A stretch of 64,000 nucleotides of DNA from a virus (lineage: Duplodnaviria > Caudoviricetes): positions 36,643-100,642 of the IMG/VR virus record IMGVR_UViG_2933073624_000001. One strand, 5' to 3'. Shown here piece by piece: positions 22,785-39,796 of this stretch. The position numbers and the translations under genes were made by a program. The notes beneath the pieces were generated by a model. That model was not told where the DNA came from, did not search any database, and was given only the letters and a program-made list of their open reading frames with translations. Within the stretch, counting starts at the first letter, position 1; each line of letters opens with the position of its first letter.

Positions 22785-24671
22785 ATGGCCGCCATCGACC
22801 CCACATCCCGAGCCTGGGAGGCCTCCTCCCGGGCCGCCAACGCCCCCAGGCGGATCCGCGCCTACAAGCACGACGGTGGCGACTTGTCCGTCATGGACTG
22901 GTTCTGCGGGGCAGGCGGCAGCGGCCAGGGCGCCGAGGCGGTCCCCGGCCTGCGCGTCTACCTCGCCGCGAACCACTGGAAGCAGGCGATCAAGACCCAC
23001 CAGATGAACTTCCCCGGAGTGGCCCACTACATGGGCGACATCCGCAAGGCCCCCGTCTGGGCCTGGCCCACCAGCGACGTGTTCTGGTCCTCGCCGGAAT
23101 GCACCAACTGGAGTATCGCCAAGGGCAGGAAGCGCTCGTTCGCGAAGGCCGTGCAGGGCGACCTCATGAGCCTGTACGCGGACGCGGAGGAAGCGAAGTT
23201 CAAGACGGGCGCCGACCCCGACAACGAGCCCACGGCCGAAGAGGAGGCCTCGCGCGCCCTGATGGAGGAGATCCCGCTCTACCTGCGCGGTGTGATCGAG
23301 CGCGGCGGCCTGATCAAGGCCGGGGTGGTCGAGAACGTGATCGACGTCCGCGCGTGGGCCGAGTGGGACGCCTGGCGCGGTGAGTTCCACAAGCTCGGGT
23401 ACTTCACGAAGCTCGTGGCGCTGAACTCGATGCACGCCGACCCGCGCAGCGTGCACAAGGCCCCGCAGTCCCGTGACCGGCTCTACCTCGTCTACTGGCA
23501 CAAGAGCCTGGGGCGCACGCCGGACTGGGACAAGTGGATCCGGCCCCGCGCGTACTGCCACGGCTGCGACGAGGTCGTGGCCGCCCGCCAGGTCTTCCGC
23601 AAGCCCGGCCAGGACATGGGCCGGTACAAGAGCAGCTACGACTACCGGTGCCCCCGGAAGTCCTGCCGGGCGCTCGTCGAGCCCGACACCCTGCCCGCCG
23701 CCGCGGCGATCGACTTCTCGATCAAGGGCACGCCGATCGGCAGCCGGCCCAAGAGCGAGGAAGCCCCCGAGGGCCTGGCCCCGAACACGATGGCCCGCAT
23801 CCGCGCGGGCGTCGCCAAGTACTGGCCCAAGCCCGGCGGCCCGGCCGACGAGGACGACACGCTGTTCGGCGACACCGGCCAGAGCGCGGCCAGGACGGCG
23901 CCGCTCCTCGTCCCGACCGGCGGGACCTGGCGGAACACCGCCAGCAGCACCGAGGTTCCGATGCCCACCCGCACGACCGTCGAGAGCGACGGGCTCGTGA
24001 TCCCCCCGATCCTGATCCCCTGCGAGGGCCGCGAGGGCAAGCAGCCGATGCCGGTCGACCAGCCCCTGCGGACCCAGACGACCCGCCTGGAAACGGCCGT
24101 CGCCTACGCCCCGTTCGTGGTCCCCATGCGAGGAGGTGGCGACAAGGAGAAGGCCCGGCACATCAGCCAGCCGCTCCACACCGTCTCGGCCGGCGGCAAC
24201 CACCACGGCCTGGTCACCGGGCCCGTCCCGCTGGTCATGCGGAACAACACCCCCAAGGGCGACCCGGCCCAGATGTGCACGACCGCCGGCGAACCGCTGC
24301 GGACGATGACGGCGGCCGGGCACCAGTCGCTCATCACCCCCGGGGACGGGCTCCTCGTCCCGTACTACGGCACCGGCCAGGCCCGGCCGGTCTCCGAGCC
24401 GGTCGGCACCCTGCCCACCCGGGACCGGTACGCGCTCCTCGACGCGAACGGCGAGTACGACCTGTCCAAGGTGCTTTTCAGGATGCTCCAGCCCAAGGAG
24501 ATCGGCAGGGCGATGGCCTTCGGTGACGACTACAGGGTCCTCGGGTCGAAGCGCGACCGGATCAGGCAGTACGGCAACGCGGTCACCCCGAACGTCGCCG
24601 AGGTCTTGCTGTGCGCGCTCGTCGAGTGCATCACCGGGGAGCCGATCAGCCGCTACGCGCTGGCCGCCTGA
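22785..24671 (+). CDS. DNA (cytosine-5)-methyltransferase
   Basis: DWFCGAGG (I), SPEC (IV), ENV (VI), QSRDR (VIII), QYGNAV (X). Confidence 0.92.
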   Translation: MAAIDPTSRAWEASSRAANAPRRIRAYKHDGGDLSVMDWFCGAGGSGQGAEAVPGLRVYLAANHWKQAIKTHQMNFPGVAHYMGDIRKAPVWAWPTSDVFWSSPECTNWSIAKGRKRSFAKAVQGDLMSLYADAEEAKFKTGADPDNEPTAEEEASRALMEEIPLYLRGVIERGGLIKAGVVENVIDVRAWAEWDAWRGEFHKLGYFTKLVALNSMHADPRSVHKAPQSRDRLYLVYWHKSLGRTPDWDKWIRPRAYCHGCDEVVAARQVFRKPGQDMGRYKSSYDYRCPRKSCRALVEPDTLPAAAAIDFSIKGTPIGSRPKSEEAPEGLAPNTMARIRAGVAKYWPKPGGPADEDDTLFGDTGQSAARTAPLLVPTGGTWRNTASSTEVPMPTRTTVESDGLVIPPILIPCEGREGKQPMPVDQPLRTQTTRLETAVAYAPFVVPMRGGGDKEKARHISQPLHTVSAGGNHHGLVTGPVPLVMRNNTPKGDPAQMCTTAGEPLRTMTAAGHQSLITPGDGLLVPYYGTGQARPVSEPVGTLPTRDRYALLDANGEYDLSKVLFRMLQPKEIGRAMAFGDDYRVLGSKRDRIRQYGNAVTPNVAEVLLCALVECITGEPISRYALAA

Positions 24672-24820: not shown

Positions 24821-25339
24821 ATGGCCGACACCGCCACCGCCCGCGCGCACACCACCTCCGCCCGCGGCCCCATCGTCGTCACCGCCACCATCACCCCCGG
24901 CCCGGACTCGTTCACGATCACCGGCGCCCACGCCTACGACACGAGCAGGCACGGCCGCATCCAGGGCGGCCTGACCCGGGGCGGGTTCTCCTTCCCGGCC
25001 GGCGAGGTCGACGTCCGCATCGACAAGCACTGGAACCTGACCGACACCCTCGACCTCGCGGTCGCCTGCGCCATCCTCGCCGCCGGCGGCCAGATCGACC
25101 CCGGCATCCTGGACCGCGTCGTCCTCCTCGGCGGCATGGGCTGGACTGGCCACCTCGACCCCGTCATGGGCGTCGCTGACTGCGCCCACATGGCCCGGCA
25201 GGGCGACCGGCGCACCATCCTGGTCCCCGCCGAGCAGTCCATGCGCGTCCACCGGCTCGACTTCGGCCTCGACGTCGTCGGCGTCCGCAGCGTCCGCGAG
25301 GCCGCCGACTTCCTCAACCGCCAGGCCGACCGGGCCTGA
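24821..25339 (+). CDS. YifB/ComM (Mg-chelatase-like) N-terminal domain only
   Basis: GFSFP, DLAVACAILAA, LLG.MG..G.L.PV.GV, ILVP; no Walker A. Confidence 0.7.
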   Translation: MADTATARAHTTSARGPIVVTATITPGPDSFTITGAHAYDTSRHGRIQGGLTRGGFSFPAGEVDVRIDKHWNLTDTLDLAVACAILAAGGQIDPGILDRVVLLGGMGWTGHLDPVMGVADCAHMARQGDRRTILVPAEQSMRVHRLDFGLDVVGVRSVREAADFLNRQADRA

Positions 25340-25442: not shown

Positions 25443-25835
25443 ATGATCGGCAAGCTCATCCCCGAAGCCCTCGCCCAGGCCATCACCGCCGAGGCCATGC
25501 GCCACGAGGCCGACCCCGTCCGCCAAGCCCAGGTCCTCAACGTCCTGGCCGCCGCGAACTACACGGTCAACGAGATCGCCGAACTCGCCGGCACGACCTG
25601 GCACGAGATCGAGACGACCATCGGCCTGCTCGCCCTGGTCGACCTCGGCAAGGACGCCCTCGACCAGGGCCTCCTCTACGTCAGCCTCGCCCGGCACATC
25701 GCCCAGCTCAGCGAGGCCAACCAGAACGTCGTCCTCATTCGCTGGATTCGCGGCGACTTCAAGAACGAGGCGCACGCCACCCGCTACGTCCAGGCCCTCA
25801 TCGAGGACGAGGGAACCGTCCTCGGCCTGAACTAG
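25443..25835 (+). CDS. ParB HTH-region paralog lacking the ParB-N domain
   Basis: aligns by eye with parB segment P.EEA...YTIDQVSE.VG...LL.L...NQ..FL.R.TRGEFK. Confidence 0.7.
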   Translation: MIGKLIPEALAQAITAEAMRHEADPVRQAQVLNVLAAANYTVNEIAELAGTTWHEIETTIGLLALVDLGKDALDQGLLYVSLARHIAQLSEANQNVVLIRWIRGDFKNEAHATRYVQALIEDEGTVLGLN

Positions 25836-27876: not shown

Positions 27877-27950
27877 GCGCTGGTGGTGCAATTGCAGCAC
27901 GCCCGACTTCCGGTCGGGAGGTCCAGGTGCAAGTCCTGGCCGGCGCTCCA
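27877..27950 (+). tRNA. tRNA-Gly(TCC), non-canonical D/T loops, encoded CCA
   Basis: acceptor GCGCTGG/CCGGCGC + T73 + CCA; D-stem GTGC/GCAC; anticodon arm CCCGA-CTTCCGG-TCGGG; T-arm CCAGG-TGCAAGT-CCTGG. Confidence 0.88.
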
Positions 27951-27953
27951 TGC

Positions 27954-27989
27954 AGAGCCCCCGGGGTGGTGAGCCCCCCGGGGGCTTTC
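27954..27989 (+). terminator. hairpin after tRNA
   Basis: AGAGCCCCCGGGG...CCCCGGGGGCTTT. Confidence 0.65.
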
Positions 27990-28119
27990 GTGTACCCCCG
28001 CCCCGTCACGCCTGACGGTAGTGATCCGAACACGCTGTGTGCCTGTTCGGCTACCATCCCCGCCGGTCAGCACCACGACCGCCCGTCCCGCCGTGACGAC
28101 CCCTTCAAGGAGCACGCCG

Positions 28120-29532
28120 ATGTTCCACGGCTCCATCCCATCCGATATGTGCCGCATCGTCCGCGAACACGTCTCCCTGTGGAACGACGTGACCGACGTC
28201 TACAACGTGTGCTGCGGGAACTTCACCGTCGAGAAGACCATCGCGTCCCTCGGGAAGAACCTGCACTCCTGCGACGTGCTGATGTACTCGACCGCCATCG
28301 GCCGGTACCTCGCCGGCGACCCGATGCCCCTGGTGTTCACCCCGACCGCCGAAGCCGAGTTCCCCTGGGCGATGGAGTACCACGAGACGCCCGCCCAGCA
28401 GCTCGCCACCATGCTCCTGTGCACCCGCCTCGCCCCGCTCATGGGCAAGAAGGAGACGCACGTCTACTGGTCGAAGATGCGCAAGGCGTACGAGCAGCAG
28501 TGGCCCGACCTCCACGCCAAGACCGTCGCCAAGGTCGAGGCGGCCGCCGAAGTCCTCAAGCTCGCCTCGTACTCCGCCGAGGACGCCCTGACGTGGGTCG
28601 ACAAGATCCCGCCCGGCGCCGGCGTCGTGTCGTACCCGCCGTTCCACGGCGCCGGGGCCGCGTTCGTCCGCGACTTCGCGAAGCTGGAGGAGATGTTCGA
28701 GTGGACTCCCCCCGAGTTCACGATCATGCAGGACCCCGAGCTGGAGTACCTGATCCAGCGGATCACCGACCGCGACCACTGGCTCCTGGGCACCAACGAG
28801 GAAGTCCCGGAGATGGCCGAGTTCCTGCGCGGCCGGACCCGCACCACGAACCGCGGCATCCCGATCTACGTCTACGCGAACTCCGGCCCCATGCGTCTGG
28901 TCGAGCCCCACCAGCGCACCGAAGCATGGCCCGGCCCCCACCTGGGCGACGAGGAGATCGGCGACAGCATCAGCCTCGCCGTCCTGTCCGGCGGCCAGTT
29001 CGCCGCCCTGCGCTCCGCCTACATGAACGCCAACATCCGGCCCGGCTCCGAATCCCTCGGCGTCGCCGTCCTGGTCGACAAGAAGCTCGTCGGCGTCTTC
29101 GCCTACTCGTGGGCCCCGACCCTGGGGAACTGGGGCGCGCACCTGCCGCAGCAGCCCACGGTCTACATGCTGTCCGACTTCCCGGTCTCCACCAGCCGCT
29201 ACGCCAAGCTGTCGAAGCTGATCGTCATGGCCGCCATCAGCCGCGAAGCCCAGCTCCTCACCTGGCGCCACGGCCACCGCCGATACCAGTCCCTGGCCAC
29301 CACGGCGTTCACGAAGCGCCCGGTGTCGATGAAGTACCGCGGCGTCCTCCGCCTCCTCAAGCGCGATCAGAAGGACGTGCTCAAGGAGGACTGGGCCAAG
29401 GGCATCGACCCGAACGACTCGTACTACGCCCAGCAGTACCAGCTCCAGTACGGAGCGCCCTTCTCCGGCAAGCCGCTCGCCGACGTGCTCCGCGAGTGGA
29501 AGAAGCGATACGGCAAGGACGTGAAGAAGTGA
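28120..29532 (+). CDS. putative DNA-modification protein: adenine-MTase-like N-terminus + GNAT/Mom-like C-terminus
   Basis: AAGGAG RBS; VYNVCCGNFT (motif I-like), SYPPF (motif IV-like); C-terminal VLVDKKLVGVFAY..YMLSDF..KLSKL..T.AFT..PVSMKYRG. Confidence 0.6.
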   Translation: MFHGSIPSDMCRIVREHVSLWNDVTDVYNVCCGNFTVEKTIASLGKNLHSCDVLMYSTAIGRYLAGDPMPLVFTPTAEAEFPWAMEYHETPAQQLATMLLCTRLAPLMGKKETHVYWSKMRKAYEQQWPDLHAKTVAKVEAAAEVLKLASYSAEDALTWVDKIPPGAGVVSYPPFHGAGAAFVRDFAKLEEMFEWTPPEFTIMQDPELEYLIQRITDRDHWLLGTNEEVPEMAEFLRGRTRTTNRGIPIYVYANSGPMRLVEPHQRTEAWPGPHLGDEEIGDSISLAVLSGGQFAALRSAYMNANIRPGSESLGVAVLVDKKLVGVFAYSWAPTLGNWGAHLPQQPTVYMLSDFPVSTSRYAKLSKLIVMAAISREAQLLTWRHGHRRYQSLATTAFTKRPVSMKYRGVLRLLKRDQKDVLKEDWAKGIDPNDSYYAQQYQLQYGAPFSGKPLADVLREWKKRYGKDVKK

Positions 29533-30425
29533 AGACCGACATCCGCACCGGCGACCCCCGCGGCCTCAAGCTCCTCGACCTCAACGCCCGGTTCATGCGA
29601 CACGAGCAGTTCCAGCAGCTCGTCGCGAACGTCCGCCGCGACCAGGCCCTCACCTCCACCCCGTTCGTCTGGCACGACACCGAGACCGGCGACCGCATCG
29701 TCCTGTCCGGGAACCACCGCACCAAGGCCGCCATCGAAGCCGGAATCGAAGAGATCACCTGGCTGGAGACCAGCGAACGACTCACCGAGTCCCAGCGCCT
29801 CGCCATCCAGCTCTCGCACAACTCCATCGCCGGCGAGGACGACGTCGCGATCCTCAAGACCCTGTACGAGAAGATTGACGACCTCGACCTGCGCCAGTAC
29901 GCCGGCCTCGACGACGCCACCCTGGAACTCCTCGCCGACCTCGACAGCCCCTCACTCGGCGAAGCCAACCTCAGCTTCCAGACCCTCGCGATCGTCTTCC
30001 TCCCCGACGACCTCAAGGAAGCCCAGGACGTCATCCGCGACGCCCTCGGCCTCGCCGCCTCCTCCGACGCCGTCTGGGTCGCCTCCCTCCGCCAGTACGA
30101 CCAGGCCATGGCCGCCCTCGACCTCGCCTCCAAGAGCGCCGACGTCACCAACGTCGCCACCGCCTTCGGCCTCATCCTGGAGTCCTTCAAAGACCACGCC
30201 GACGAGCTCGTCGACTCCTGGTTCGACCGCGACACCGGCGAACCCAAGCACCACGGCATGGCCCCCCTCCTCACCCTCTTCCACACCGACGCCATGCCCA
30301 CCAAGGGCGCCGCCATCGTCGAGAAGGCACTACAGCAGGCCGTAGCCCGAGGCGACGTCCCCGCCGAGCACCGCCACCGCGCCCTCGAACTGTGGGCACG
30401 CCAGTACCTCGACACCCCCGCCTGA
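29529..30425 (+). CDS. ParB/Srx N-terminal domain protein
   Basis: GTGA coupling; NARFM, VLSGNHRTKAA, QLSHNSIAG.DD. Confidence 0.8.
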   Translation: MKTDIRTGDPRGLKLLDLNARFMRHEQFQQLVANVRRDQALTSTPFVWHDTETGDRIVLSGNHRTKAAIEAGIEEITWLETSERLTESQRLAIQLSHNSIAGEDDVAILKTLYEKIDDLDLRQYAGLDDATLELLADLDSPSLGEANLSFQTLAIVFLPDDLKEAQDVIRDALGLAASSDAVWVASLRQYDQAMAALDLASKSADVTNVATAFGLILESFKDHADELVDSWFDRDTGEPKHHGMAPLLTLFHTDAMPTKGAAIVEKALQQAVARGDVPAEHRHRALELWARQYLDTPA

Positions 30426-30430
30426 CCGCC

Positions 30431-31069
30431 ATGAGCACCAACAAGCCCCCGATCACGCTCAGTCCAACACTCGACCCATGGGAGCCACAGGACGGCGAGA
30501 GCGCCCGAAGGCACGGCCAGTTCATCACCTACCGCGACATCGGCCGGACCCGGACGCTACAGAAGGCCGCCGAAGCGCTACAGATCCACCCGGTCAACGT
30601 CAGGAAGGCGGCGGCCCAGTTCCGGTGGCGGGAGCGCGCCGAGGCCTGGGACCGGCACCTGGACCGGCTGTACGAGGCGGCATGGGTCGAGGAGCGGCGG
30701 AAGGCGGCCGAGAGCGACGCCCGGATCCTGGGCGCGGTCGTCGGCAAGCTCGCCCAGCGGCTGGGCACGCTGAACGCCGCCGAGATGACGATCGGGGACT
30801 TCACCCGCATGCTCGACGTCGCCATGCGGCACCGCCGTGTCCTGTTCGGTGACCCCGAGGCGACGATCGCGGTCACCGGGCCCGGCGGGAACCCGCTCGC
30901 GGTCCAGCTGGCGGAGTTCGCGCAGATGCCGGCGGAGCAGCGGCGCGCGCGGATCGAGGACCTGGCGGCCGCCGTGCAACGCCGCACCCAGGCGCTGCAC
31001 GGCGGTGACGACGACGACGGTGAGGGCCCGGCCGACGGCCCGAACCGGGATGAGGACGACGTGCCGTAA
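30431..31069 (+). CDS. terminase small subunit-like HTH protein
   Basis: GES...F..YRD.G..R.L..AA, W.ERA.AWD; immediately upstream of terL. Confidence 0.65.
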   Translation: MSTNKPPITLSPTLDPWEPQDGESARRHGQFITYRDIGRTRTLQKAAEALQIHPVNVRKAAAQFRWRERAEAWDRHLDRLYEAAWVEERRKAAESDARILGAVVGKLAQRLGTLNAAEMTIGDFTRMLDVAMRHRRVLFGDPEATIAVTGPGGNPLAVQLAEFAQMPAEQRRARIEDLAAAVQRRTQALHGGDDDDGEGPADGPNRDEDDVP

Positions 31070-32652
31070 TGAGCGCAGTGCTGACCGCCGAGGACCTGGC
31101 GCACTACGACGACGCCGAGGTGTACCAGCGGCTCGCCGCCGCGAAGGCGGCGCTGGCCCGCGACCTGCTGTGTGATCCGCTCACCCTGGCTCTGGGCCTG
31201 GACCGGACCTATCGGCTGCGCCCGCACCTGCGGGTGATCGGCAATGCCCTGGTGGGCCTGTCGAACGGCGAGTACGACCGGCTGATGGTGTGGACGCCGT
31301 CGCAGGTCGGGAAGTCGTCCCTGGCGGCCGAGTGGTTCCCGTTCTGGTGGCTGTGCCTGCACGGCGATGACCGGGTCGCGGTGACGTCGTACAGCGACGA
31401 CCTGGCCATGCGGCGCGGTAAGACGATCCGCCGGTACATCAACGAGTACGGCGCGGAGTACGACCTGGAGCTCCTCGCCGGCTCGGCGGCCGCGCAGGAC
31501 TACGACACCACCGCGGGCGGCGGCGTGCGGTCGGTGTCGATCGGGTCCGGCCTGACCGGCTTCGACGTGAACGTTCTGGTGGTGGACGACCCGCACAAGG
31601 ACCGTGGCGAGGCGGAGAGTCCCCGGCTGCGCGAGCACGTCCATGACTGGTGGTCGTCGGCCGCCCTCAAGCGGTTGCAGCCCGACCGGAACGCGGTGGT
31701 CGCGATGCAGACGCGCTGGCACCCGGACGACTTCTGCGGCCGGCGCCTGGCGGAGGAGGGACGCCTGGAGGAAGGCGGCCGGTGGAAGGTGGTCCACCTG
31801 CCTGCCATCGCGAACCCGTCGAAGTTCGGGCCCGACCCGATGGGCCGCCAGGACGGCGACCCGCTGACGCACCCGAAGATCCCCACGAGGCAGCGCAAGA
31901 AGCTCCTGGGGTGGTGGGCGGACGTGAAGAAGACGTCCACCGTCCGGGACTGGCACGCCATGGCCCAGGGCGACCCGCAGCCGTCCGAAGGCGCCCTGGT
32001 ATCCCGGGACCTGCTGCGCCTGATCCGGGACGGGGCGACGAAGGTCGAGCCGCAGAAGATCGCGGTCGCGATCGACCCGTCCGGCGGCGGCCGGGACACC
32101 GCGGGCGTTATCGGCGGCTTCCTCGGCGCCGACAAGCGGGTGTGGATCACGCACGACCGGTCTGCGGCGATGTCGTCGGCCGACTGGTCCCGGGCGGCCT
32201 GCATGCTGGCGTACGAGACGGACGCGGCGATCATCTACGTCGAGTGGAACTTCGGCCGGGACATGGCCGTCCTCGCCCTGGAAACGTCGTGGGAGACGCT
32301 CCAGCGCGAGGGCGCGATCCCCCCGGGGCACCTGATGCCGATGATCGACCCCGTACGGGCCAAGCAGGGCAAACTGCTGCGGGCGGAACCCGTCGCCCAG
32401 CAGATGGTCCAGGACCGGGTCCGGCTGCGCGGCGCGTTCCCGGACCTGGAGAACGAGTGGGCGACGTGGCAGCCGACCGACCCCGACAGCCCCGGCCGTA
32501 TCGACGCCTCCTGCATCCTCGTGTACGGCCTGATCCCCGAGGCCAACAAGGGCGCCATCGTCCACGCCCCGAAGCCGACCGCACCCCAGCCCGGCGGTAT
32601 GGCCCGGCCCGGTGGCGCGGCGGCGCTGTACGGCCGACGCATCGGGAAGTGA
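31069..32652 (+). CDS. terL: terminase large subunit
   Basis: PSQVGKS Walker A, VLVVDDPHKD Walker B, QTRWH.DD, AIDPS nuclease, SPGRIDA. Confidence 0.9.
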   Translation: MSAVLTAEDLAHYDDAEVYQRLAAAKAALARDLLCDPLTLALGLDRTYRLRPHLRVIGNALVGLSNGEYDRLMVWTPSQVGKSSLAAEWFPFWWLCLHGDDRVAVTSYSDDLAMRRGKTIRRYINEYGAEYDLELLAGSAAAQDYDTTAGGGVRSVSIGSGLTGFDVNVLVVDDPHKDRGEAESPRLREHVHDWWSSAALKRLQPDRNAVVAMQTRWHPDDFCGRRLAEEGRLEEGGRWKVVHLPAIANPSKFGPDPMGRQDGDPLTHPKIPTRQRKKLLGWWADVKKTSTVRDWHAMAQGDPQPSEGALVSRDLLRLIRDGATKVEPQKIAVAIDPSGGGRDTAGVIGGFLGADKRVWITHDRSAAMSSADWSRAACMLAYETDAAIIYVEWNFGRDMAVLALETSWETLQREGAIPPGHLMPMIDPVRAKQGKLLRAEPVAQQMVQDRVRLRGAFPDLENEWATWQPTDPDSPGRIDASCILVYGLIPEANKGAIVHAPKPTAPQPGGMARPGGAAALYGRRIGK

Positions 32653-33367
32653 GCTGCGCCACTCGCGAGGTACCCGAGAGGGCGGGGGATGGGCCAGATT
32701 CAGTCAACGTGTGATTGGTTGCCCCGGCCGATCTGCGCGGATCAAGCGGAAAGCCGCAGGTGAGAGGGGCTATAGGCCAGGTTGTAGAAAAGTTGGAGTG
32801 GGCCAACTTGCCTTGTCAGAGGCCCTGTTCATGGAATGGCGCAAGGAAACTCTGAACGGAGTTTAGGGAAGCCCCAAGCGCCTACTGTCGGCGAAGACGA
32901 CGAAGGCCGCCCCGGCAGGCGGCCTCCGGCTACGTCCGTTCCCGTACTCGCTCAAGCACCTTGGAAGGACATGCCCATGGAAGCACACAACCGCGGTGGC
33001 ATCCACGTCGGATGGACACGACCCACCGCGCGCGACTGCGTGGTGTCGCTGACCCTCGGATACCTGCTCTACCAGGAGCCGAGCGTCCCGTGGTGGGCCG
33101 CCGCCGGTGCGACGGTCGCCGCGATCGGGTGGATCCGCGTCACCCGAACTGTCTGAAACGGGCCCCCTGTCGCACCCAGCGGCAGGTGGTAACCGAGTTG
33201 TACGAGGCGGGCAGCCGGTACGCGGCACACTGGGCGCATGACTGACGCCTCCCACGACCCGATCGACGCGCACCTCGGCCAGAACCCCGAGGTGCGCCGC
33301 AAGGCCCTGCACGACCCACTAGGCCGTGTATCGAAAGTGGATCTTGGACTGTGAATGATCACGGTTC

Positions 33368-34243
33368 ATGGGTCGGGGAGATCTCACGGACGAGCAGTGG
33401 GCCGCGCTGGAACCGTTGTTGCCGAAGGGCACGAAGGCGGGCCGGCCGCCCGTCTGGTCTCGGCGGCGGTTGATCGACGGCATACGGTTTCGGGTCCGGA
33501 CCGGTGTTCCGTGGCGGGACGTGCCCGTCGAGTACGGGCCGTGGGGCCGGGTCTACGACTTGTTCCGCCGGTGGCAGCGGACCGGAACCTGGCACCGGAT
33601 CATGACCCGGCTGCAGTCCTTGGCCGACGCGAAGGGTGTGATCACGTGGGACCTGAGCGTCGACTCCACGGTCTGTCGTGCTCATCAGCACGCGGCTGGG
33701 GCCCGCAAGCAGGGGGGCCTGCAGAAGGAACCGCCGGGCGGTGTCTTCACCGAGCCCGATGATCACGGACTGGGTCGCTCGCGCGGCGGGTTCACCACCA
33801 AGTTGCACCTGGCTGTCGAGCAGGGTCAGAAGCCCATGTCGATCTTGATCACGGCCGGGCAGCGCGGGGACTCGCCGCAGTTCGAACCCGTGCTCAACAA
33901 GGTCCGAGTGCCCCGCATTGGGCCGGGTCGGCCGCGCGTCCGGCCCGATCGCGTGCGGGCTGACAAGGCGTACGCCTCCCGCAAGAACCGCGCCTACCTG
34001 CGGCGCCGCGGGATCCGCTGCACCATCCCGGACAAGGCCGACCAAGCACGCAACCGCCGAAAGCTCGGCTCCCAGGGCGGCCGGCCGCCGCACTTCGACC
34101 CGGTCGACTACCGCGAACGTCACGCGGTCGAGTGTGGGATCAACCGCCTCAAGAGGAACCGCGCCGTCGCCACGCGATACGACAAGCTCGCGGTCCGCTA
34201 CGAGGCGACCGTCCTCGTCGCGGCCATCAACGAGTGGCTGTGA
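33368..34243 (+). CDS. IS5-family (IS427-like) transposase
   Basis: DLTDEQW..LEPLLP, SVDST, GRSRGG.TTKLH, ADKAY, RYDKLA..Y. Confidence 0.95.
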
Positions 34244-34253
34244 CCGTTGGCCA

Positions 34254-34775
34254 TCACGCGGTGGGATCCACGTTCCACATCGCTGGCAGCTCGCTGCTGC
34301 AGAAGACGCAGACGAAGTCGTCCTCGCGCACGATGTTGTGCTCCTGGCAGTCGGGGCACCGCCGGAACACCACCTCGTGGGTGAAGGCGGAGGGCCGCCC
34401 AAGTTCTACGTCGTCCAAAGCGTGAGCGACTGCTGGCCAGGAGGTCACGTCCGGGCAGTATCCGGTGGACTGGTTGCTGACCTCGCCCACGGTCCACCGG
34501 TCTGCCTCACGCATGAAGCTGATTTCGCCGGCACTGAGAACCATGTCCCCACCAGCGCAGGCCACGTGCTCGCTTCGCCGCGGCGCCAGCCGAAGCACAC
34601 CATCCGTGCCGACCACGAAGGTGAACGGTTCGGTCAGCTCTGCTGCCGATCGCTCAGTGATCCAACCGTCGAAGTCAGCCGCCGAGCGGATCGGGCACCC
34701 GCCGCTGCCAGGCCGGACCACAGCCTTCAGCTCCACCGGCCCGACGTATCGGTAACTCCGCCCCCGCGCACTCAC
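34254..34775 (-). CDS. IS passenger hypothetical protein
   Basis: SEHVACAGG..VLSAGE...SNQSTGYCP plus C-terminal CxxC...CxxC. Confidence 0.75.
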   Translation of the reverse strand: MSARGRSYRYVGPVELKAVVRPGSGGCPIRSAADFDGWITERSAAELTEPFTFVVGTDGVLRLAPRRSEHVACAGGDMVLSAGEISFMREADRWTVGEVSNQSTGYCPDVTSWPAVAHALDDVELGRPSAFTHEVVFRRCPDCQEHNIVREDDFVCVFCSSELPAMWNVDPTA

Positions 34776-35093
34776 AGCAGCCAACCTAAAGCACTTCCGA
34801 CACACGCCCTAGTCGCTGCCGGCGTCCACCAGCTCCGGACCGTCCTGGAACAGCTCGACAGGCTGCTCGTTGCCGAGGGCCTGGACGAGGAGGCGCGGCA
34901 GCGGGTCAAGACCGGTCTCGCGGCCGACTCTCTCGGTACGGACGCGGACCTGGCCCGGCAGCGCGAGCAGGAAACCCTCGCCGCCGGCCTCGCCCAGCCG
35001 GTGACGTGGGAAGGGCTGGACCAACGGCCGTAACGTCAACGACGCGGCCCGGAAGGTTGACCGGACCGCGCCCGCGCCCGGCACACTGACCGC

Positions 35094-35348
35094 ATGAAGC
35101 TGCCACGCGTCCACTGCGAGAAGTGCGACCGGCCGATCGCCGCCGGACCGGTCGCCGGGCGCCTGAGCAAAGGCCGGCTCTGGCGCCACGACCCGCCGAA
35201 CATGCGCGAGCTCCACCCGGGCGAGCTGGTCTCCTGCGCCGGGTCCCTGGCGATCGTGGACCTGCCCGTCGGGCAGATGGAACTCGTCAGCGACGACGAC
35301 CTCGAGCGCGCCAGCGAACCAGACGACGAGCAGCCGGGTCTGTTCTAA
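35094..35348 (+). CDS. small Zn-binding protein
   Basis: leaderless CACACT-N6-ATG; CEKC...H...C. Confidence 0.7.
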   Translation: MKLPRVHCEKCDRPIAAGPVAGRLSKGRLWRHDPPNMRELHPGELVSCAGSLAIVDLPVGQMELVSDDDLERASEPDDEQPGLF

Positions 35349-35370
35349 CCTTGTCCTCCGGGTTGTCGCC

Positions 35371-36474
35371 TTACCCGCTGTACTTCTGCCGGACTTCCAA
35401 GACAGAGCGTTCTGCGGGGGACAGGTTGAGCAGCAACAGAAGCCCTTGCTGCATGGCTACTTCGACGTCGGCAGGTTCGATTCTGCTCGCGGACTCCACC
35501 CGTAGTGCTACTGGAAGCCGATCATTCTGCATACCGATCAGGATCGGCACTCGCAGCCAGCAAGAGACGAACCCCGGGCTCAAGGAGGAGTCGGAAGGCA
35601 CACCAGTCGCAAGGATTCGTGCCGTTGCGGTACACCAGGTGTCGCCGTTGATCGTGAACGCCTTCACGTCAGCGATGGCCGTCACCTCCACAACGGGCGG
35701 GATGAGCCACGTTCGCAGCCACGTCCAGTCGAGAGCATCGCCGTAGAGCCCGTGAACGCGGGAAACCTCGACTCCCTTGCTGGCGCCGTCGCCCATGAGC
35801 AGTGCGATCTGCTGGCCCAGTTCGCTTTCAGGCTCCCGCTCTCGGATGACGCGCATCACCTCATCCGGGTCCACCTCGACTTCGCGCGTGAAGCGCTCGA
35901 CGACCTGATCGAGCGAGGTGAGGTGCACGAAGCGGCCGTCGAGGTCTTCGATGTCCTCGGCCATCGGGTACTCGTACACGCTGCCGTCGCCGAAGTCCTT
36001 GGTATTAGAGCTGACGAAGTAGACCGTCTCGTCCGGGTTGGCCGCCGCGTACTCCACGGCCGACAGCCAGATCGCCGCGTCCCGGCCGCCGGTCTTGCCC
36101 TGCTTCTCGCTCCGGGCCGGCGGCAGGTTGCTCACCTCGCGGATCATCGCCTGTCGAAGCGCCTCTTCGCTGGTCGGGATCGTCCCGACGAAGTCCGTGT
36201 ACTTCTTGCGCCAGTAGTCCCGGACCTCTTCCGGCGCGCACGCCTCCAGCATCACGTTTGTCTGCCAGGGGGTGACGTTGTTCAGGGAGTCGAGGGCTTG
36301 AGCTGCGGCAGCGTGCTGCTTGAGGTACTTCTCCACCTGCTGTCCTGCGAGCTCCTCGACCACCATCCAGGGGGCGGCGACTCCCACGCCGGATTCCCTG
36401 ATGGCCCGAAGGAGATCGGCGCTGCTGCTCTCCAGGCCGCAGCCGCGCAGGATGCACGAATCGAAGATGATCAA
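35371..36474 (-). CDS. PIN-domain protein (DUF4935-like), moron
   Basis: IIFDSCIL, VVEEL, RDAAIWLS, FVSSNTKDF. Confidence 0.8.
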   Translation of the reverse strand: MIIFDSCILRGCGLESSSADLLRAIRESGVGVAAPWMVVEELAGQQVEKYLKQHAAAAQALDSLNNVTPWQTNVMLEACAPEEVRDYWRKKYTDFVGTIPTSEEALRQAMIREVSNLPPARSEKQGKTGGRDAAIWLSAVEYAAANPDETVYFVSSNTKDFGDGSVYEYPMAEDIEDLDGRFVHLTSLDQVVERFTREVEVDPDEVMRVIREREPESELGQQIALLMGDGASKGVEVSRVHGLYGDALDWTWLRTWLIPPVVEVTAIADVKAFTINGDTWCTATARILATGVPSDSSLSPGFVSCWLRVPILIGMQNDRLPVALRVESASRIEPADVEVAMQQGLLLLLNLSPAERSVLEVRQKYSG

Positions 36475-36825
36475 CTGTAGGACCTCGCCCCCCCTGGTTC
36501 CGCCTTGGACGAGATCAGCTTCTCAGGAACTGATCACTGGACGCACAAGGATTCCGTGCGAGCAGTCCCGAACCTCGTGAAGTGCGTTCCGGGGGAGCGG
36601 CGGCCGCGAGGTGCGTACTCCCGCGCCGTCCGGACGCTGCATCGGCATGACCGCCGCGCCCCGGCCCGGCGCCCTCCCCGGCCTGCCGCCAGCAGGAGGG
36701 CACCGTCACGGCCTCTGAGGTGACCGCCCGCCCACGATAGCCGGGGCGGTCAGTGGATTTCCAAGGGGCGATCTGAGGTGCCTTGGAGAGGAAGATCTCT
36801 GAGCTCGATTAGGGGTTAGCGCAAT

Positions 36826-37479
36826 TCAGGGTGTTGAAGAGGGGTTGGGCTGCGTAGTGCTGCCTGTCCTTCTGAGTGTATCCAGTAGCTGAATTTCCTG
36901 CGGACTGTATCGGCTGCGTTGGGCGGTAAAATATTCGGTAATGGATCGCGCCCCTCGAAATGCTGCGGCGAAATACCCCTCGATCACAAGCAGGATCATT
37001 GAGGTGGTTGTGATTAGGAAGCTTACTTTGGCGAGCTTGGGCTGAGGGCCGGGGGAGTCGGTTCCGATCCATCTCAGCATGGCTACTTGTGATGTGAGTA
37101 CGGCTGCGCAGATGAGTAGCCAGACGACGCCGACGATGAAGGTGCCAGATTTCTTGAGCAGGGATTCAAATGTCCCTTTTAGGTAATCCCAAGGGGTGGG
37201 GAGCTTTTGTAGGGCCCGGATCTCTTCAGATGTGGGATTAATTCCCTGGCGCAACTTTTCTAGGATGCGCCGCTCTTGCTCGATTCGCTTGACGAAGAAG
37301 GCGTTGGGATGCTGAAGCGCCCTGCTGAGCAACCTAGAGTACTGAACTGTTCCGACCAGTAGAACAGCAGCATTTAGGGTCGTCAGTACCGCCACATTGT
37401 CATTGCTCATTGCCCAAGCCACGGGCCCCCCAGTGTATTTGTTGAAGAGTGTCGCGCGCGGAAGTGCCGGAGCGGTCAC
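36826..37479 (-). CDS. low-GC membrane protein, moron
   Basis: three hydrophobic segments, markedly lower GC than flanks. Confidence 0.6.
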   Translation of the reverse strand: MTAPALPRATLFNKYTGGPVAWAMSNDNVAVLTTLNAAVLLVGTVQYSRLLSRALQHPNAFFVKRIEQERRILEKLRQGINPTSEEIRALQKLPTPWDYLKGTFESLLKKSGTFIVGVVWLLICAAVLTSQVAMLRWIGTDSPGPQPKLAKVSFLITTTSMILLVIEGYFAAAFRGARSITEYFTAQRSRYSPQEIQLLDTLRRTGSTTQPNPSSTP

Positions 37480-37697
37480 GCTCTAGCGACGGGTCGTCTG
37501 AACGCGGTCTCGAGCCGACGAGGGTCCATACTGCCGCGTCACGAGACTTGTGAGGGGGTTGTTGCTGGATGCCGGAACTTCCTGTGATCTGAAATGCCGT
37601 CCTGACCTGCGCAGTTGCCCCCGAGAACTGATCACAAGGGTTGGCCTATCATGCCCCGCTGACCAAGGTCGGACGATCATCGCAGTAGGGGACGAAC

Positions 37698-38033
37698 ATG
37701 ATCAGCCCCGTAGAACTCGCCCTTCTCGCCCTCGCCGGGTACCGGGGGACTCAACTTGTCGTGCACGACTCGATCCTCGACGCCCCCCGCGAGGCCCTCG
37801 ACCGGTGGCAGCAGAAGAAGCCCCACGCAGCCGGACGCGCCGCCCTGGTGACGCTGATCTCGTGCATCTACTGCACCGGCTGGTGGGTGGCCGGCGCGCT
37901 CCTGGCCGTCTGGCTCCTCGTCACCGACACCTGGAGCGGCGTCCCGGTCCTCGTGCACGGCTTCGAGTGGCTGGCCGTCGCCGGCGCCGCCGCGCTCCTG
38001 AACCGGTGGGACGACTCCCGCAAGGACGCCTGA
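37698..38033 (+). CDS. DUF1360-family membrane protein
   Basis: YR.TQLVV.DSI...PR, LISCIYCTGWW. Confidence 0.8.
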   Translation: MISPVELALLALAGYRGTQLVVHDSILDAPREALDRWQQKKPHAAGRAALVTLISCIYCTGWWVAGALLAVWLLVTDTWSGVPVLVHGFEWLAVAGAAALLNRWDDSRKDA

Positions 38034-39796
38034 TGGCCGCGACGCTCACCGCGGCGGCGTCCCGCTACACGTCCCGGAAGATCACCGGCAAAGGCCCCGG
38101 GGACCAGTCGCGGCAGCTCCGCGCCTACGACATGTACCACCGGGTGCCCGAGGTCCGTTTCGCCGCCTCGTGGATCGCCAACGCCATGTCCGGCGCCCGC
38201 CTGTTCGCAGGCCGCTACGACGACGAAGGCCGGATCGTGCCCGCCCCCGCCGGGCATCGGGCCGCCGAGATCGTGTCCCAGATCGCCGGAGGCCCCGACG
38301 GGCAGGCCAAGATGCTCGGCGCGTTCGGCCGGCACCTGACCGTCCCCGGCGAGGGCTGGATCGTCGTCCGCCCCAACTCCGAAGTGCAGTCGCCGTACTC
38401 CCCGGAAGACGGCCACGACTGGCGCGTGCTGTCCGTACGGGAGGTACGCCGCCAGTCCGGGAAGATGACCGCCGAGATCGACGGTGACGAGATCGTCATC
38501 CCCGAGGGCGACCCCGACAAGATGGACCCGGACGGGCCCGTTGCCCTGCGGGTGTGGGAACCCGACCCCGAGCGGGCGATCGAGGCCGACAGCCCGGTCC
38601 TGACGAGCCTGGAGCTCCTGGAAGAGCTGATCCTGCTGAATGCAGCGGTCAAGGCCATCGCCAGGTCCAGGATCACCGGGCGCGGCATTCTGTTCGTCCC
38701 CAAGGGCACCCGGTTCCCGACCGCGCCCGGCCAGGACAGTGCGCAGGACGACCTGATCGAGATCCTGATGACGGTCTCGGAGACCGCCATCCGTGACCCG
38801 GAGTCGGCGGCCGCGACCGTCCCGATCGTCCTGGAAGTCCCCGCCGACACGATCGAGGCCTTCAAGCACCTCACGTTCGAGAGCGAATTCGACGACCTCG
38901 CGATCAAGTTGCGCGAAGAGGCCGTCCGCCGTTTCGCCACCGGCCTGGAGATCCCCGCCGAGATCCTCCTCGGCCTCGGCGACGTGAACCACTGGGGAGC
39001 CTGGGCGCTCACCAGCGAGGCGATCCGCCTGGGCATCGAACCCAAGCTCGCGACCGTCGCCCATTGCCTCACCCAGCAGTGGCTGCGCCCCATCCTCGAA
39101 GACGACGGCGACCCCGAGTGGCACCGCTGGCTCGTCTGGTACGACACCGCCCCCCTGCGCGTGCGCACCAACCGGTCCGAGACCGCGCTCCAGGCCCATG
39201 ACCGGGGCGTCATCTCCGACGCCGCCCTCCGGCGCGAGACCGGGTTCGAGGAGAGCGACGCCCCCACAGCGGACGAGATCGCGCGCCGCACCCCGCAGGA
39301 GAACACCGAGAACCCCGAGGATGCCGAGGAGAACCCCGTGCCCCAGACGCCGACTCGCCCCACCCTGCCCGTCGACGAGTCCGAGGCGACCCCGCGGACC
39401 CTCGACGGCCTCGAAGCCTCCGCCACCGCAGCCGGCCTGCCGGAGCCGCTGATCGCGACCGCCGACATCCTTGTGTGGGCCGCCCTGTCGGCCGCCGGAC
39501 GACGCGTCAAGAACAGCTCCGCCTGCCCCCGCTCCGACCGCGGCAGGGTCAGCGGCGCGGCCCTCGACACGATCCACACGCTCGTCACGGTCACCCCCGA
39601 CCAGGTCGACAAGCTGTGCCTCCTCGAAGGCGCCTGGGCCCGCGTCCCCGAGGTCGCCCAGCGCTACGGCGCCAACCCCGACTGCATGGCCGCCTCCCTC
39701 GACGAGTACGTGCGCGACCTGATCGCCGCCGGCGTCGGCCACGAGTACCGGCACGTGCCCGCCGTCCTGGCGTCCTGCTTCGAGACGGCCGCATGA
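38033..39796 (+). CDS. portal protein
   Basis: position, size, VPEVRFA..W, L.VPGEGW, NHW.AW. Confidence 0.8.
   Translation: MAATLTAAASRYTSRKITGKGPGDQSRQLRAYDMYHRVPEVRFAASWIANAMSGARLFAGRYDDEGRIVPAPAGHRAAEIVSQIAGGPDGQAKMLGAFGRHLTVPGEGWIVVRPNSEVQSPYSPEDGHDWRVLSVREVRRQSGKMTAEIDGDEIVIPEGDPDKMDPDGPVALRVWEPDPERAIEADSPVLTSLELLEELILLNAAVKAIARSRITGRGILFVPKGTRFPTAPGQDSAQDDLIEILMTVSETAIRDPESAAATVPIVLEVPADTIEAFKHLTFESEFDDLAIKLREEAVRRFATGLEIPAEILLGLGDVNHWGAWALTSEAIRLGIEPKLATVAHCLTQQWLRPILEDDGDPEWHRWLVWYDTAPLRVRTNRSETALQAHDRGVISDAALRRETGFEESDAPTADEIARRTPQENTENPEDAEENPVPQTPTRPTLPVDESEATPRTLDGLEASATAAGLPEPLIATADILVWAALSAAGRRVKNSSACPRSDRGRVSGAALDTIHTLVTVTPDQVDKLCLLEGAWARVPEVAQRYGANPDCMAASLDEYVRDLIAAGVGHEYRHVPAVLASCFETAA

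What the first reader, a model, noticed from the sequence alone, without database searches (positions are those of the whole stretch)
27877..30425. Candidate tRNA-dependent DNA hypermodification module: atypical tRNA-Gly + MTase-like/Mom-like enzyme + ParB-N, coupled to terminase
Seen: the only tRNA found in the window is a tRNA-Gly(UCC). It sits directly upstream of a 470-aa gene with adenine-MTase-like motifs (VYNVCCGNF, SYPPF) and a C-terminal GNAT-like segment, which is coupled (GTGA) to a ParB-N gene and then terS/terL. Established: Mu Mom is a GNAT-fold enzyme making N6-carbamoylmethyl-adenine, and as I recall recent biochemistry indicates Gly-tRNA-Gly is its donor. FemXAB GNAT enzymes also use Gly-tRNA. 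ParB-N plus DNA-modification genes often precede terminases. Inference: the element carries its own glycyl-donor tRNA to modify its DNA against restriction. The GNAT/Mom assignment is by eye only.
Basis: partly seen in the sequence, partly recalled or inferred. Interest (0 to 1): 0.93.

Follow-up and report, generated by a model that had tools for sequence, protein, structure and literature searches.

The report
Phage DNA-modifying enzyme with private tRNA-Gly
This Streptomyces phage carries an odd glycine tRNA gene directly in front of a two-domain enzyme (a Dam-methylase-like fold joined to an acyltransferase fold) and a ParB-like partner, a trio that recurs in many phages and probably puts tRNA-carried glycine onto the phage's own DNA, though no experiment has tested this.

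Summary
A tRNA-Gly(UCC) at 27877-27950 is the only tRNA in the 100.6-kb virus record. It lies 169 nt before a 470-aa gene (Pfam PF22555 Dam-like + PF22559 GNAT-like). That gene overlaps (GTGA) a ParB/Srx-like gene, followed by terS/terL.

Of 162 homologous loci, 162 keep the ParB-like gene. 77 have a tRNA-Gly-like gene just upstream on the same strand, and 9 more have one nearby. Of the 73 without one, 53 form a single Streptomyces clade. Apart from one locus with a truncated gene, no other amino-acid identity was seen.

These tRNAs keep the GlyRS identity set (G1-C72, C2-G71, G3-C70, U73, C35C36) but often lose features needed for decoding.

- The wobble base is free, including A34.
- U33 is missing in 25 of 67.
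- Position 37 is a pyrimidine in 19 of 67.
- The D-loop GG is missing in 33 of 67.
- The T-loop is not TTC in 18 of 67.
- Some are stripped-down mimics.

Folded alone, the GNAT domain's top solved match is Mu Mom (Z 10.8, tied with other GNATs). By sequence it is not a Mom-family member. Dam motif IV is [Y/F]PPF.

Best reading (about 0.6): Gly-tRNA-dependent adenine hypermodification with a private donor tRNA. The chemistry is untested. This scan has already noted the same module on other DNA.

The parts
27877..27950 (+). tRNA-Gly(UCC)-like gene, 74 nt with encoded CCA. It keeps G1-C72, C2-G71, G3-C70, U73, C35 and C36. Its D loop is AATTGCA (no GG), its T loop is TGCAAGT, and C32:G38 can pair.
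   Evidence: ARAGORN. Rfam 56.6 bits. Own covariance model R1 85.5 bits. Parse. RNAfold -37.6 kcal/mol, z -2.6, with a 7-bp anticodon stem and a triloop.
27956..27986 (+). GC-rich hairpin (11-bp stem, 9-nt loop) followed by TTTC, right after the tRNA. It may be the tRNA's terminator or a processing signal.
   Evidence: Read from the sequence. The simple terminator scan does not call it because the T run is too short.
28120..29532 (+). 470-aa fusion enzyme, with an AAGGAG-like ribosome-binding site at 28106-28111.
   Evidence: Translation. PF22555 + PF22559. phrog_7858. 354 homologues in the word-index search. 743 clusters at 50% identity with E<=1e-3.
28123..28944 (+). Dam-like domain (residues 2-275). 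It has the Dam fold. Motif IV reads [Y/F]PPF in place of D/N/S-PP-Y/F. The GxSGN loop and an invariant Asp (NDV) are kept.
   Evidence: Pfam. VIA-align: E. coli Dam 2g1p_B Z 14.1, 197 residues aligned; T4 Dam Z 13.2; DpnM Z 13.1. Alignment A1: P173, P174 and F175 are invariant and the residue before them is Y or F in 20 of 20.
28963..29511 (+). GNAT-like domain (residues 282-464). It lacks the Q/RxxGxG/A CoA loop (motif recalled from knowledge of GNATs).
   Evidence: Pfam. AF2 model of the domain alone: pLDDT 91.4, pTM 0.88. Search of 48,161 PDB chains: top hit Mu Mom 8bv8_B, Z 10.8, rmsd 3.6, 154 residues aligned. Consensus of A3.
29529..30425 (+). ParB/Srx-like partner, 298 aa, translationally coupled (GTGA). 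Invariant residues are SGNHR, Q..HN, G.DD and LDD.
   Evidence: Translation. PHROGs. Atlas. Alignment A4. A homologue lies directly downstream in 167 of 167 loci.
30392..31069 (+). Terminase small subunit (context).
   Evidence: phrog_6299, 3.4e-17.
31069..32652 (+). Terminase large subunit (context).
   Evidence: phrog_38, 2e-73.

Best explanation
This is a three-part phage DNA-hypermodification module that sits at the head of the packaging genes.

(1) The tRNA-Gly-like RNA is transcribed and charged with glycine by the host GlyRS, because it keeps the acceptor and anticodon identity nucleotides. Across the family it has lost features that EF-Tu and the ribosome need. It would therefore act as a private carrier of activated glycine (inferred).

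(2) The Dam-like domain of the fusion enzyme binds dsDNA and flips a target adenine into its altered [Y/F]PPF pocket (inferred from fold and motif).

(3) The fused GNAT domain takes glycine from the 3' end of the charged tRNA and acylates N6 of that adenine, as phage Mu Mom does. The product may then rearrange to N6-carbamoylmethyl-dA (inferred by analogy).

(4) The obligate ParB/Srx-like partner probably loads or moves the enzyme on DNA, or supplies a nucleotide-dependent step (weakly inferred).

(5) The modified genome resists host restriction (inferred).

Shown here: the anatomy, the folds, the conserved three-way linkage, and the selective retention of GlyRS identity.
For: Linkage
- ARAGORN and the covariance model R1 place a tRNA-Gly-like gene 1-400 nt upstream on the same strand in 77 of 162 loci (72 of 150 distinct proteins). 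Six more loci have one within 2.5 kb, and three have one upstream on the other strand.
- These loci span Actinomycetota, Bacillota and Chloroflexota, plus cultured cluster W mycobacteriophages and cluster CP Gordonia phages.
- On the enzyme tree the trait needs at least 10-13 changes. 53 of the 69 tRNA-less rows on the tree belong to one Streptomyces clade.
- No tRNA other than Gly or Gly-like was found, except in L159, which has a truncated gene.
- A more distant branch has 69-nt stripped-down Gly mimics at the same place.

tRNA structure
- The cloverleaf is real: 97.2% of cells pair against 68.3% in shuffles, and the covariation score is 0.734 against 0.18.

Selection pattern in 67 distinct upstream tRNAs
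- U73 in 67 of 67, and C35C36 in 65 of 67.
- In the 63-sequence alignment, G1-C72, C2-G71 and G3-C70 are invariant.
- N34 is U in 36, C in 20, A in 9 and G in 2.
- U33 is present in only 42.
- Position 37 is a pyrimidine in 19.
- The D loop has GG in only 34.
- The T loop starts TTC in only 49, and TGC in 9.
- Host tRNAGly genes from three genomes are canonical.
- TGC in place of TTC is also the mark of the staphylococcal non-proteogenic tRNAGly (PMC7826273, passages).

Enzyme
- Dam fold with Z 14.1.
- GNAT domain whose top match among 48,161 chains is Mom.
- Mom uses Gly-tRNAGly, is thought to read the acceptor end, and accepts all isoacceptors (PMC13219725, sections 10 and 14).
- The ParB-like partner is present in 167 of 167 loci.
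- terS follows in 78 of 162 loci.
Against: - Nothing here tests the chemistry, the charging of the tRNA, or expression.
- The GNAT domain shows no sequence relationship to the Mom family (hhalign 0.6% and 2%). Its structural lead over generic CoA-dependent GNATs is under 1 Z unit, so the matches are tied.
- 73 of 162 loci lack any tRNA-like gene. In three complete genomes of the tRNA-less clade, the nearest R1 hit lies 188-245 kb from the module.
- This window's own tRNA still has U33, a UCC anticodon and a purine at 37, so it could decode GGA/GGG.
- An extra 32:38 pair is also drawn for a proteogenic S. aureus tRNAGly (PMC7826273), so that feature alone proves nothing.
- The invariant Asp and the glycine-rich loop of the Dam-like domain suggest that it may still bind SAM.
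- NCBI and UniRef name the family 'putative antirestriction adenine methyltransferase'.
Confidence: 0.6

Rival explanations
1. Ordinary anti-restriction m6A methyltransferase plus an ordinary translation tRNA. The Dam-like domain methylates phage DNA with SAM, and the tRNA-Gly(UCC) only supplements decoding of GGA/GGG, which are rare in a high-GC host.
For: The fold is Dam. Databases name the family an adenine methyltransferase. An invariant Asp and a Gly-rich loop remain in the cofactor region. The window's tRNA has a formally usable anticodon loop.
Against: - Motif IV lacks the polar D/N/S in 20 of 20 sequences.
- The GNAT domain is fused throughout (top 120 hits).
- The tRNA is always Gly and always at this gene.
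- Its wobble base drifts to A34. U33, R37, the D-loop GG and the T-loop TTC are lost in many members. Some members are 69-nt mimics or have triloops that cannot decode.
Confidence: 0.08
2. The tRNA-like RNA is a target or a decoy, not a donor. In one version the GNAT acetylates or blocks Gly-tRNAGly, as the TacT/AtaT-type toxins do, or the enzyme modifies the tRNA. In another, the altered tRNA escapes or soaks up host defences that attack tRNA.
For: GNATs that act on Gly-tRNAGly exist; TacT is cited in PMC13219725 section 13. Altered anticodon loops fit the idea of nuclease evasion (recalled from the literature, not checked here).
Against: A Dam-fold DNA-binding domain and a ParB-like partner are universal. 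The position before the terminase genes fits DNA work. Evading a nuclease would not require conserving GlyRS identity while losing decoding features.
Confidence: 0.1
3. Aminoacyl-tRNA-dependent transfer occurs, but to something other than adenine N6 in DNA. The target could be another base, a nucleotide precursor or a protein such as the ParB-like partner. Alternatively there is a two-step chemistry in which the Dam-like domain also methylates.
For: The tRNA linkage is the same as for the main reading. The cofactor pocket of the Dam-like domain looks partly intact. The ParB-like protein has enzyme-like invariant His, Asn and Asp residues.
Against: The Dam fold with a PPF pocket is an adenine-flipping device (motif knowledge recalled). 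Mom gives a direct precedent for N6 of adenine (PMC13219725).
Confidence: 0.12
4. The tRNA-like element is a cis signal: an RNase P/Z processing site, an mRNA-stability element or a regulatory element for the downstream operon, or a leftover of an integration site.
For: It always lies in the 5' region of the operon. A hairpin follows it in the window.
Against: A processing signal needs no GlyRS identity set or C35C36, yet these are the most conserved positions. Full-length copies sit inside phage genomes, including cultured phages. Six loci carry the element downstream or further away.
Confidence: 0.05

Closest known systems
Mom of bacteriophage Mu (Pfam PF25680; PDB 8bv8; Silva et al., Nat Commun 2026, PMC13219725)
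   Same: A phage GNAT-fold enzyme. It is the top structural match of the GNAT domain (Z 10.8, 154 residues aligned). It has a published mechanism of glycyl transfer from Gly-tRNAGly to N6 of adenine in dsDNA, and it is thought to recognise the acceptor end.
   Different: - There is no detectable sequence relationship.
- Mom is a stand-alone 231-aa protein that binds DNA through an HTH-like insert and uses host tRNAs. This enzyme is fused to a Dam-like domain, always has a ParB-like partner, and often brings its own tRNA.
- Mom's essential residues could not be mapped onto this domain.
Staphylococcal non-proteogenic tRNAGly with FmhB/FemXAB (PMC7826273)
   Same: [quoted passage not shown]
   Different: The acceptor there is a cell-wall precursor and the enzyme is of the Fem family. 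That tRNA lineage is reported as confined to staphylococci. The likeness here is one of function and is probably convergent.
Dam-type N6-adenine DNA methyltransferases (E. coli Dam 2g1p, T4 Dam 1yf3, DpnM 2dpm)
   Same: The fold of residues 1-257 (Z 13.1-14.1, 197 residues aligned), a PPF aromatic pocket and an acidic residue after strand 2.
   Different: Motif IV reads [Y/F]PPF and lacks D/N/S. No hit to the Dam Pfam family at E<=0.1. No hit to solved Dam sequences with a profile.
Phage ParB-N/methyltransferase fusions and ParB-like nucleases (e.g. phrog_498, phrog_940)
   Same: The N-terminal ParB/Srx domain of the partner matches them (E 5.8e-11 and 5.2e-10).
   Different: Here the ParB-like protein is a separate gene. 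It has its own conserved C-terminal half and its own family, phrog_7405.

Membership tests
PF22555 + PF22559 two-domain phage family ('putative antirestriction adenine methyltransferase') | Both Pfam domains above the gathering score, in this order. | tested here: met
   332.8 and 185.3 bits against a cut-off of 27. The top 120 homologues have the same architecture.
Mom family (PF25680) | Sequence membership. | tested here: not met
   No PF25680 hit at E<=0.1. hhalign of A3 against Mu Mom gives 0.6%. hhalign against a 22-member Mom alignment gives 2%.
Mom family (PF25680) | GNAT fold closest to Mom. | tested here: inconclusive
   8bv8_B ranks first of 48,161 chains at Z 10.8, but SbzI and generic GNATs score 9.6-10.1, which counts as a tie.
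Mom family (PF25680) | Essential residues R111, S124, D149, R151 and the HTH-like insert at about 175-209 (PMC13219725, section 13). | tested here: inconclusive
   No reliable residue alignment could be made. The model has a helical insert between the last strands, but some family members lack it.
Mom family (PF25680) | Uses Gly-tRNAGly to modify N6 of adenine in dsDNA. | not testable with these tools
   Only the genomic linkage to a tRNA-Gly-like gene bears on this.
Dam-type N6-adenine methyltransferase | Dam fold. | tested here: met
   2g1p_B Z 14.1, rmsd 5.3, 197 residues aligned.
Dam-type N6-adenine methyltransferase | Catalytic motif IV, (D/N/S)PP(Y/F/W) (motif recalled). | tested here: not met
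   The residue before PP is Y or F in 20 of 20 aligned homologues.
Elongator (decoding) tRNA-Gly | Cloverleaf and GlyRS identity set (G1-C72, C2-G71, G3-C70, U73, C35, C36). | tested here: met
   The identity set is as listed in PMC7826273; G3-C70 is recalled.
Elongator (decoding) tRNA-Gly | G18G19 in the D loop and T54-psi55-C56 (TTC) in the T loop (recalled as near-universal). | tested here: not met
   The window has D loop AATTGCA and T loop TGCAAGT. In the family, GG is present in 34 of 67 and TTC in 49 of 67. Host tRNAGly genes have both.
Elongator (decoding) tRNA-Gly | Open 7-nt anticodon loop with U33 and a purine at 37. | tested here: inconclusive
   The window has U33 and G37, but C32:G38 pairs and the minimum-energy fold is a triloop. 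In the family, U33 is present in 42 of 67 and position 37 is a pyrimidine in 19 of 67.
ParB/Srx N-terminal domain | Domain match and a GxxR-type motif. | tested here: met
   PHROG ParB-like families. Atlas clusters carrying PF02195 on 29-74% of members. SGNHR is invariant. Pfam itself gives no hit at E<=0.1.

The most novel reading that the evidence does not exclude
A widespread phage system for aminoacylating DNA that supplies its own parts: a private, non-decoding tRNA-Gly mimic as glycine carrier; a Dam-fold domain that has given up methyl transfer and serves as adenine reader and flipper; a GNAT writer that evolved apart from Mom; and an obligate ParB/Srx partner. It would place a glycine-derived base (N6-glycyl- or N6-carbamoylmethyl-dA) in the genomes of phages of Actinomycetota, Bacillota and Chloroflexota. 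It would also show that phage tRNA genes can be cofactors for DNA chemistry rather than aids to translation.
Probability: 0.5. Interest if true: 0.9.

Novelty: new variant of a known kind. Interest (0 to 1): 0.8.

Why it matters
tRNA-dependent DNA modification is so far known from one enzyme, Mom, which uses host tRNAs. If this module works as proposed, it has several consequences.

- It extends that chemistry to a second, unrelated-by-sequence GNAT lineage with at least 743 clusters at 50% identity.
- It gives a function to a family now labelled as a methyltransferase.
- It explains why some phages carry a single odd tRNA-Gly, for example cluster W mycobacteriophages (PMC5356062).
- It gives a second natural case, after the staphylococcal cell-wall tRNAs, of a tRNA withdrawn from translation to feed another pathway.

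The idea can be tested directly, because carriers are in culture on Mycobacterium smegmatis and Gordonia rubripertincta.

I found no paper describing the linkage. The library does not cover most subscription journals. The supplements of PMC13219725, which may hold gene-neighbourhood data on Mom homologues, were not seen.

Tried and rejected
- **Sequence link of the enzyme to solved structures.** phmmer of P0001 and a profile of A1 against PDB sequences found nothing meaningful.
- **BLAST-level link of the GNAT domain to Mu Mom in cultured phages.** None was found. Only the same 15 phage records and a weak Faecalibacterium phage hit appeared.
- **NCBIfam.** No family matched P0001.
- **Whole-model Foldseek.** The results mixed both domains and ranked Mom only 20th. 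I therefore folded and searched the GNAT domain alone.
- **Integration-site remnant.** Rejected, because full-length tRNAs sit inside cultured phage genomes.
- **Hairpin upstream of the gene in the tRNA-less Streptomyces clade.** I considered it as an acceptor-stem mimic, since it starts GCG and ends CGC-T. I rejected this because its closing pair is G-U in many members, it has no CCA, and R1 does not match it.
Not seen in the 239 loci held here. ARAGORN scanned all 77 further loci and R1 scanned 50 of the 77. These gave only Gly-like RNAs and one odd 97-nt 'Ser(act)' call that R1 reads as a 69-nt Gly-like mimic. That branch may lie further out than my sampling reached.
- **Expression.** No RNA holder is listed for this stretch, and read laying was not used.
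- **DUF488.** The upstream genes in other loci match DUF488 models only below the cut-off. A literature search on DUF488 gave nothing useful.

**Sampling limits.** L003-L007 duplicate L008-L012 and were dropped from the counts. L157, L158, L159, L161 and L163 (truncated genes) were left out of the tree.


Full report
**What is there.** The window is part of a 100,642-nt virus record. It is a Streptomyces-type phage or prophage. Its genes include terminase, portal and head-morphogenesis genes, a major head protein and a tape measure, a further DNA methyltransferase and a large ParB-like protein upstream, and an IS-type transposase between terL and the portal region.

One tRNA gene exists in the window and in the whole record: tRNA-Gly(UCC) at 27877-27950. 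It is followed by a GC-rich hairpin at 27956-27986. After 169 nt comes a 470-aa gene at 28120-29532. Pfam splits this gene into PF22555, 'Phage DNA adenine methylase-like domain 1' (residues 2-275, E 1.9e-99), and PF22559, 'Phage GNAT-like domain' (residues 282-464, E 9.3e-55). Its stop codon overlaps the GTG start of a 298-aa ParB/Srx-like gene at 29529-30425. terS and terL follow.

**Folds.** An AlphaFold2 model of the whole enzyme reaches pLDDT 84.4. Residues 1-257 match Dam-type DNA adenine methyltransferases best: E. coli Dam at Z 14.1 with 197 residues aligned, T4 Dam at Z 13.2 and DpnM at Z 13.1. The family's motif IV, however, reads [Y/F]PPF. P173, P174 and F175 are invariant, and the preceding residue is Tyr or Phe in 20 of 20 diverse homologues. 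The polar D/N/S of the canonical motif (recalled) is therefore absent. A Gly-rich loop (GCSGN) and an invariant Asp (NDV) remain in the cofactor region.

The GNAT domain folded alone gives pLDDT 91.4 and pTM 0.88. An all-against-all structural search of 48,161 PDB chains ranks phage Mu Mom (8bv8_B) first, at Z 10.8, rmsd 3.6 and 154 residues aligned. SbzI (Z 10.1) and ordinary GNATs (Z 9-10) lie within one Z unit, so this is a tie.

At the sequence level there is no link to Mom. There is no PF25680 hit, and hhalign gives 0.6% against Mu Mom and 2% against a 22-member Mom alignment. The family consensus after strand 4 has no Q/RxxGxG/A loop (motif recalled). This fits a donor other than acyl-CoA but does not prove one.

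**The decisive comparison.** I collected related loci from viral contigs, species genomes and cultured phages. ARAGORN over 167 loci and a covariance model built from 63 of the tRNAs were run over all of them. After dropping five duplicate loci, the 162 loci sort as follows.

| Position of the tRNA-Gly-like gene | Loci (of 162) |
|---|---|
| 1-400 nt upstream, same strand | 77 |
| Elsewhere within 2.5 kb | 6 |
| Upstream, opposite strand (two of these look like canonical host tRNAs) | 3 |
| None found | 73 |
| No upstream sequence available | 3 |

The only other tRNAs seen anywhere were Asn, Asn and Met, far upstream of a truncated gene in L159.

On a tree of the enzymes, 53 of the 69 tRNA-less rows form one Streptomyces clade. 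The tRNA-bearing state is spread over both halves of the tree, and at least 10-13 changes are needed. Carriers include Streptomyces, Actinomadura, Nakamurella, Oscillospiraceae and other Bacillota, and Chloroflexota.

Among cultured phages, Mycobacterium phage Megabear has an annotated tRNA-Gly(tcc) 37 nt before its homologue at 37% identity. The cluster W genome announcement for Taptic reports a single tRNA, Gly(TCC), and a ParB homologue with no ParA (PMC5356062, passages). Gordonia phage Sting has no ARAGORN tRNA, but it has an R1 hit of 57.8 bits at the same place. That element has a Gly-type acceptor stem, an encoded CCA and an anticodon arm reduced to a 7-bp stem with a CCC triloop. In a more distant branch of the enzyme family, ARAGORN scanned all 77 further loci and R1 scanned 50 of them. 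There, 69-nt stripped-down RNAs with GCG...CGC-U-CCA ends and an NCC loop occupy the same position.

The ParB-like gene is directly downstream in 167 of 167 loci. A terS homologue lies within 2.5 kb in 78 of 162 loci and a terL homologue in 24 of 162.

**What selection keeps and what it lets go.** The cloverleaf is well supported. 97.2% of cells pair against 68.3% in shuffles and about 40% in slid controls, and 19 of 23 pairs show compensatory change. G1-C72, C2-G71, G3-C70 and U73 are invariant in the 63 aligned sequences. The 67 distinct upstream tRNAs show the following.

| Feature | Count (of 67) |
|---|---|
| U73 | 67 |
| C35C36 | 65 |
| N34 | U 36, C 20, A 9, G 2 |
| U33 present | 42 |
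| Pyrimidine at 37 | 19 |
| Watson-Crick 32:38 pair | 62 |
| GG in the D loop | 34 |
| TTC starting the T loop | 49 (TGC 9, TCC 4) |
| CCA encoded | 44 |

Canonical tRNAGly genes from three host genomes have open CTTCCAA, TTCCCAA or TTGCCAA loops, GG in the D loop and TTCGA in the T loop. The retained positions are the GlyRS identity set as listed in PMC7826273. The lost ones serve tertiary folding, EF-Tu and the ribosome (established knowledge, recalled). The same paper reports that staphylococcal non-proteogenic tRNAGly genes carry TGC or TGT instead of TTC, and the window's T loop is TGCAAGT.

There are two caveats. That paper also draws an extended anticodon stem for a proteogenic tRNAGly, so the 32:38 pair alone is not diagnostic. 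And this window's own tRNA (U33, UCC, G37) could still decode.

**Mechanism.** Silva et al. (PMC13219725: abstract and sections 10, 13 and 14 read; supplements not seen) show that Mom transfers glycine from Gly-tRNAGly to N6 of adenine in dsDNA. All isoacceptors serve, mischarged Gly-tRNAAla does not, and recognition probably rests on the acceptor end. The glycyl adduct then rearranges to N6-carbamoylmethyl-dA.

A GNAT fused to an adenine-flipping Dam fold that lacks its catalytic polar residue, and that travels with an RNA conserved only for being glycylated, is most simply read as the same chemistry with divided labour. The Dam-like domain finds and flips the adenine. The GNAT domain transfers glycine. 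The private tRNA supplies glycine without competing with translation. Phages of the tRNA-less clade would draw on host tRNAGly. In three complete genomes of that clade, no R1 hit lies within 188 kb of the module.

The role of the ParB-like partner is open. It is universally present and has invariant SGNHR, Q..HN, G.DD and LDD motifs, which point to an enzymatic or nucleotide-dependent function. I could not test binding. All biochemical steps are inference.

**Rivals.** These are listed with odds in their own section. The main one is a plain methylase with a codon-supplement tRNA. It does not explain the exclusive Gly identity, the fixed position, A34, the missing U33 and R37, or the mimics that cannot decode.

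**Novelty.** The two Pfam domains and the database name show that the protein family is catalogued. Mom's tRNA dependence is published. I found no paper linking this family to a tRNA. The searches were made, and the library omits most subscription journals. This scan itself has noted the same module repeatedly on other DNA: 54 findings in at least 41 genomes, several with follow-up reports that reach the same reading. Those notes are not independent evidence.

One note claims a second branch with Lys, Arg or Pro tRNAs. I did not see it in the 239 loci held here. I class the finding as a new variant of a known kind.

Noticed in passing
L176:1501-1572, L177:1501-1571, L178:1501-1571, L184, L185, L202 (Streptomyces genomes G001, G002, G006): Three of the six genomes examined (five Streptomyces, one Actinomadura), all three Streptomyces, carry one to three chromosomal copies of a non-canonical tRNA-Gly(UCC). 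It has a TGC T loop and a C32:G38 pair, and its acceptor stem resembles that of the module tRNA. The copies sit in ordinary contexts, e.g. just after tsaD. They could be a host non-proteogenic tRNAGly, since Streptomyces peptidoglycan has a glycine bridge (recalled). They could also be the ancestor of the phage tRNA, or the donor used by the tRNA-less phage clade.
   Followed up: partly
Proteins P0275, P0299, P0312, P0316, P0323, P0347, P0373, P0374, P0384 (alignment A7): Homologues of about 600-770 aa carry an insert of about 270 aa exactly after the FPPF motif of the Dam-like domain. It starts with Cys, ends with HN followed by Ser, and has a LAGLIDADG-like block, so it looks like an intein. 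P0373 also has an HNH insert. Pfam splits the Dam-like domain around the insert but matches no intein model at E<=0.001. An intein at this spot would mark the PPF pocket as functionally critical.
   Followed up: partly
e.g. L014:1802-2323, L031:1842-2306, L051:1514-1981, L089:1657-2334: Many loci have a small gene with an LLC.E....WCHRR.FA.WW motif just upstream of the tRNA or enzyme. It matches DUF488 and DUF488-N3a only below the cut-off (E about 2e-4 to 4e-3) in three of the four loci tested; the fourth (L089) gave no Pfam hit. A crude motif count found it in 77 of 159 loci. The window itself has no such gene at that place.
   Followed up: partly
L062-L078, L113-L154 (about 120 nt upstream of the gene): The tRNA-less Streptomyces clade has a conserved upstream block in place of the tRNA: GATAGGTGACAT..., followed by a long GC hairpin before the ribosome-binding site. 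Its function is unknown and R1 does not match it.
   Followed up: no
L027:2271-2422, L040:1478-1626, L042:2261-2424, L092:2272-2423: Some loci carry two tandem tRNA-Gly-like genes with different wobble bases (e.g. CCC and ACC) in front of the enzyme.
   Followed up: no
window 32653-40609: An IS4/IS5-type DDE transposase (33368-34243) and other non-phage-like genes lie between terL and the portal/head genes, so the prophage may be disrupted at this point.
   Followed up: partly
window 14517-17660, 22785-24671, 24821-25339, 25443-25835: Upstream of the module the phage also encodes a 1047-aa protein with a ParB-like domain, a 628-aa DNA methyltransferase (phrog_116), a ChlI-like domain protein and a small ParB-HTH protein. 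Several DNA-modification or partition-type genes are therefore clustered here.
   Followed up: no
window 40610-42082: The head-morphogenesis/portal-associated protein has a C-terminal stretch that matches Alt-like ADP-ribosyltransferase PHROGs (E 1.3e-8 and 1.1e-7).
   Followed up: no
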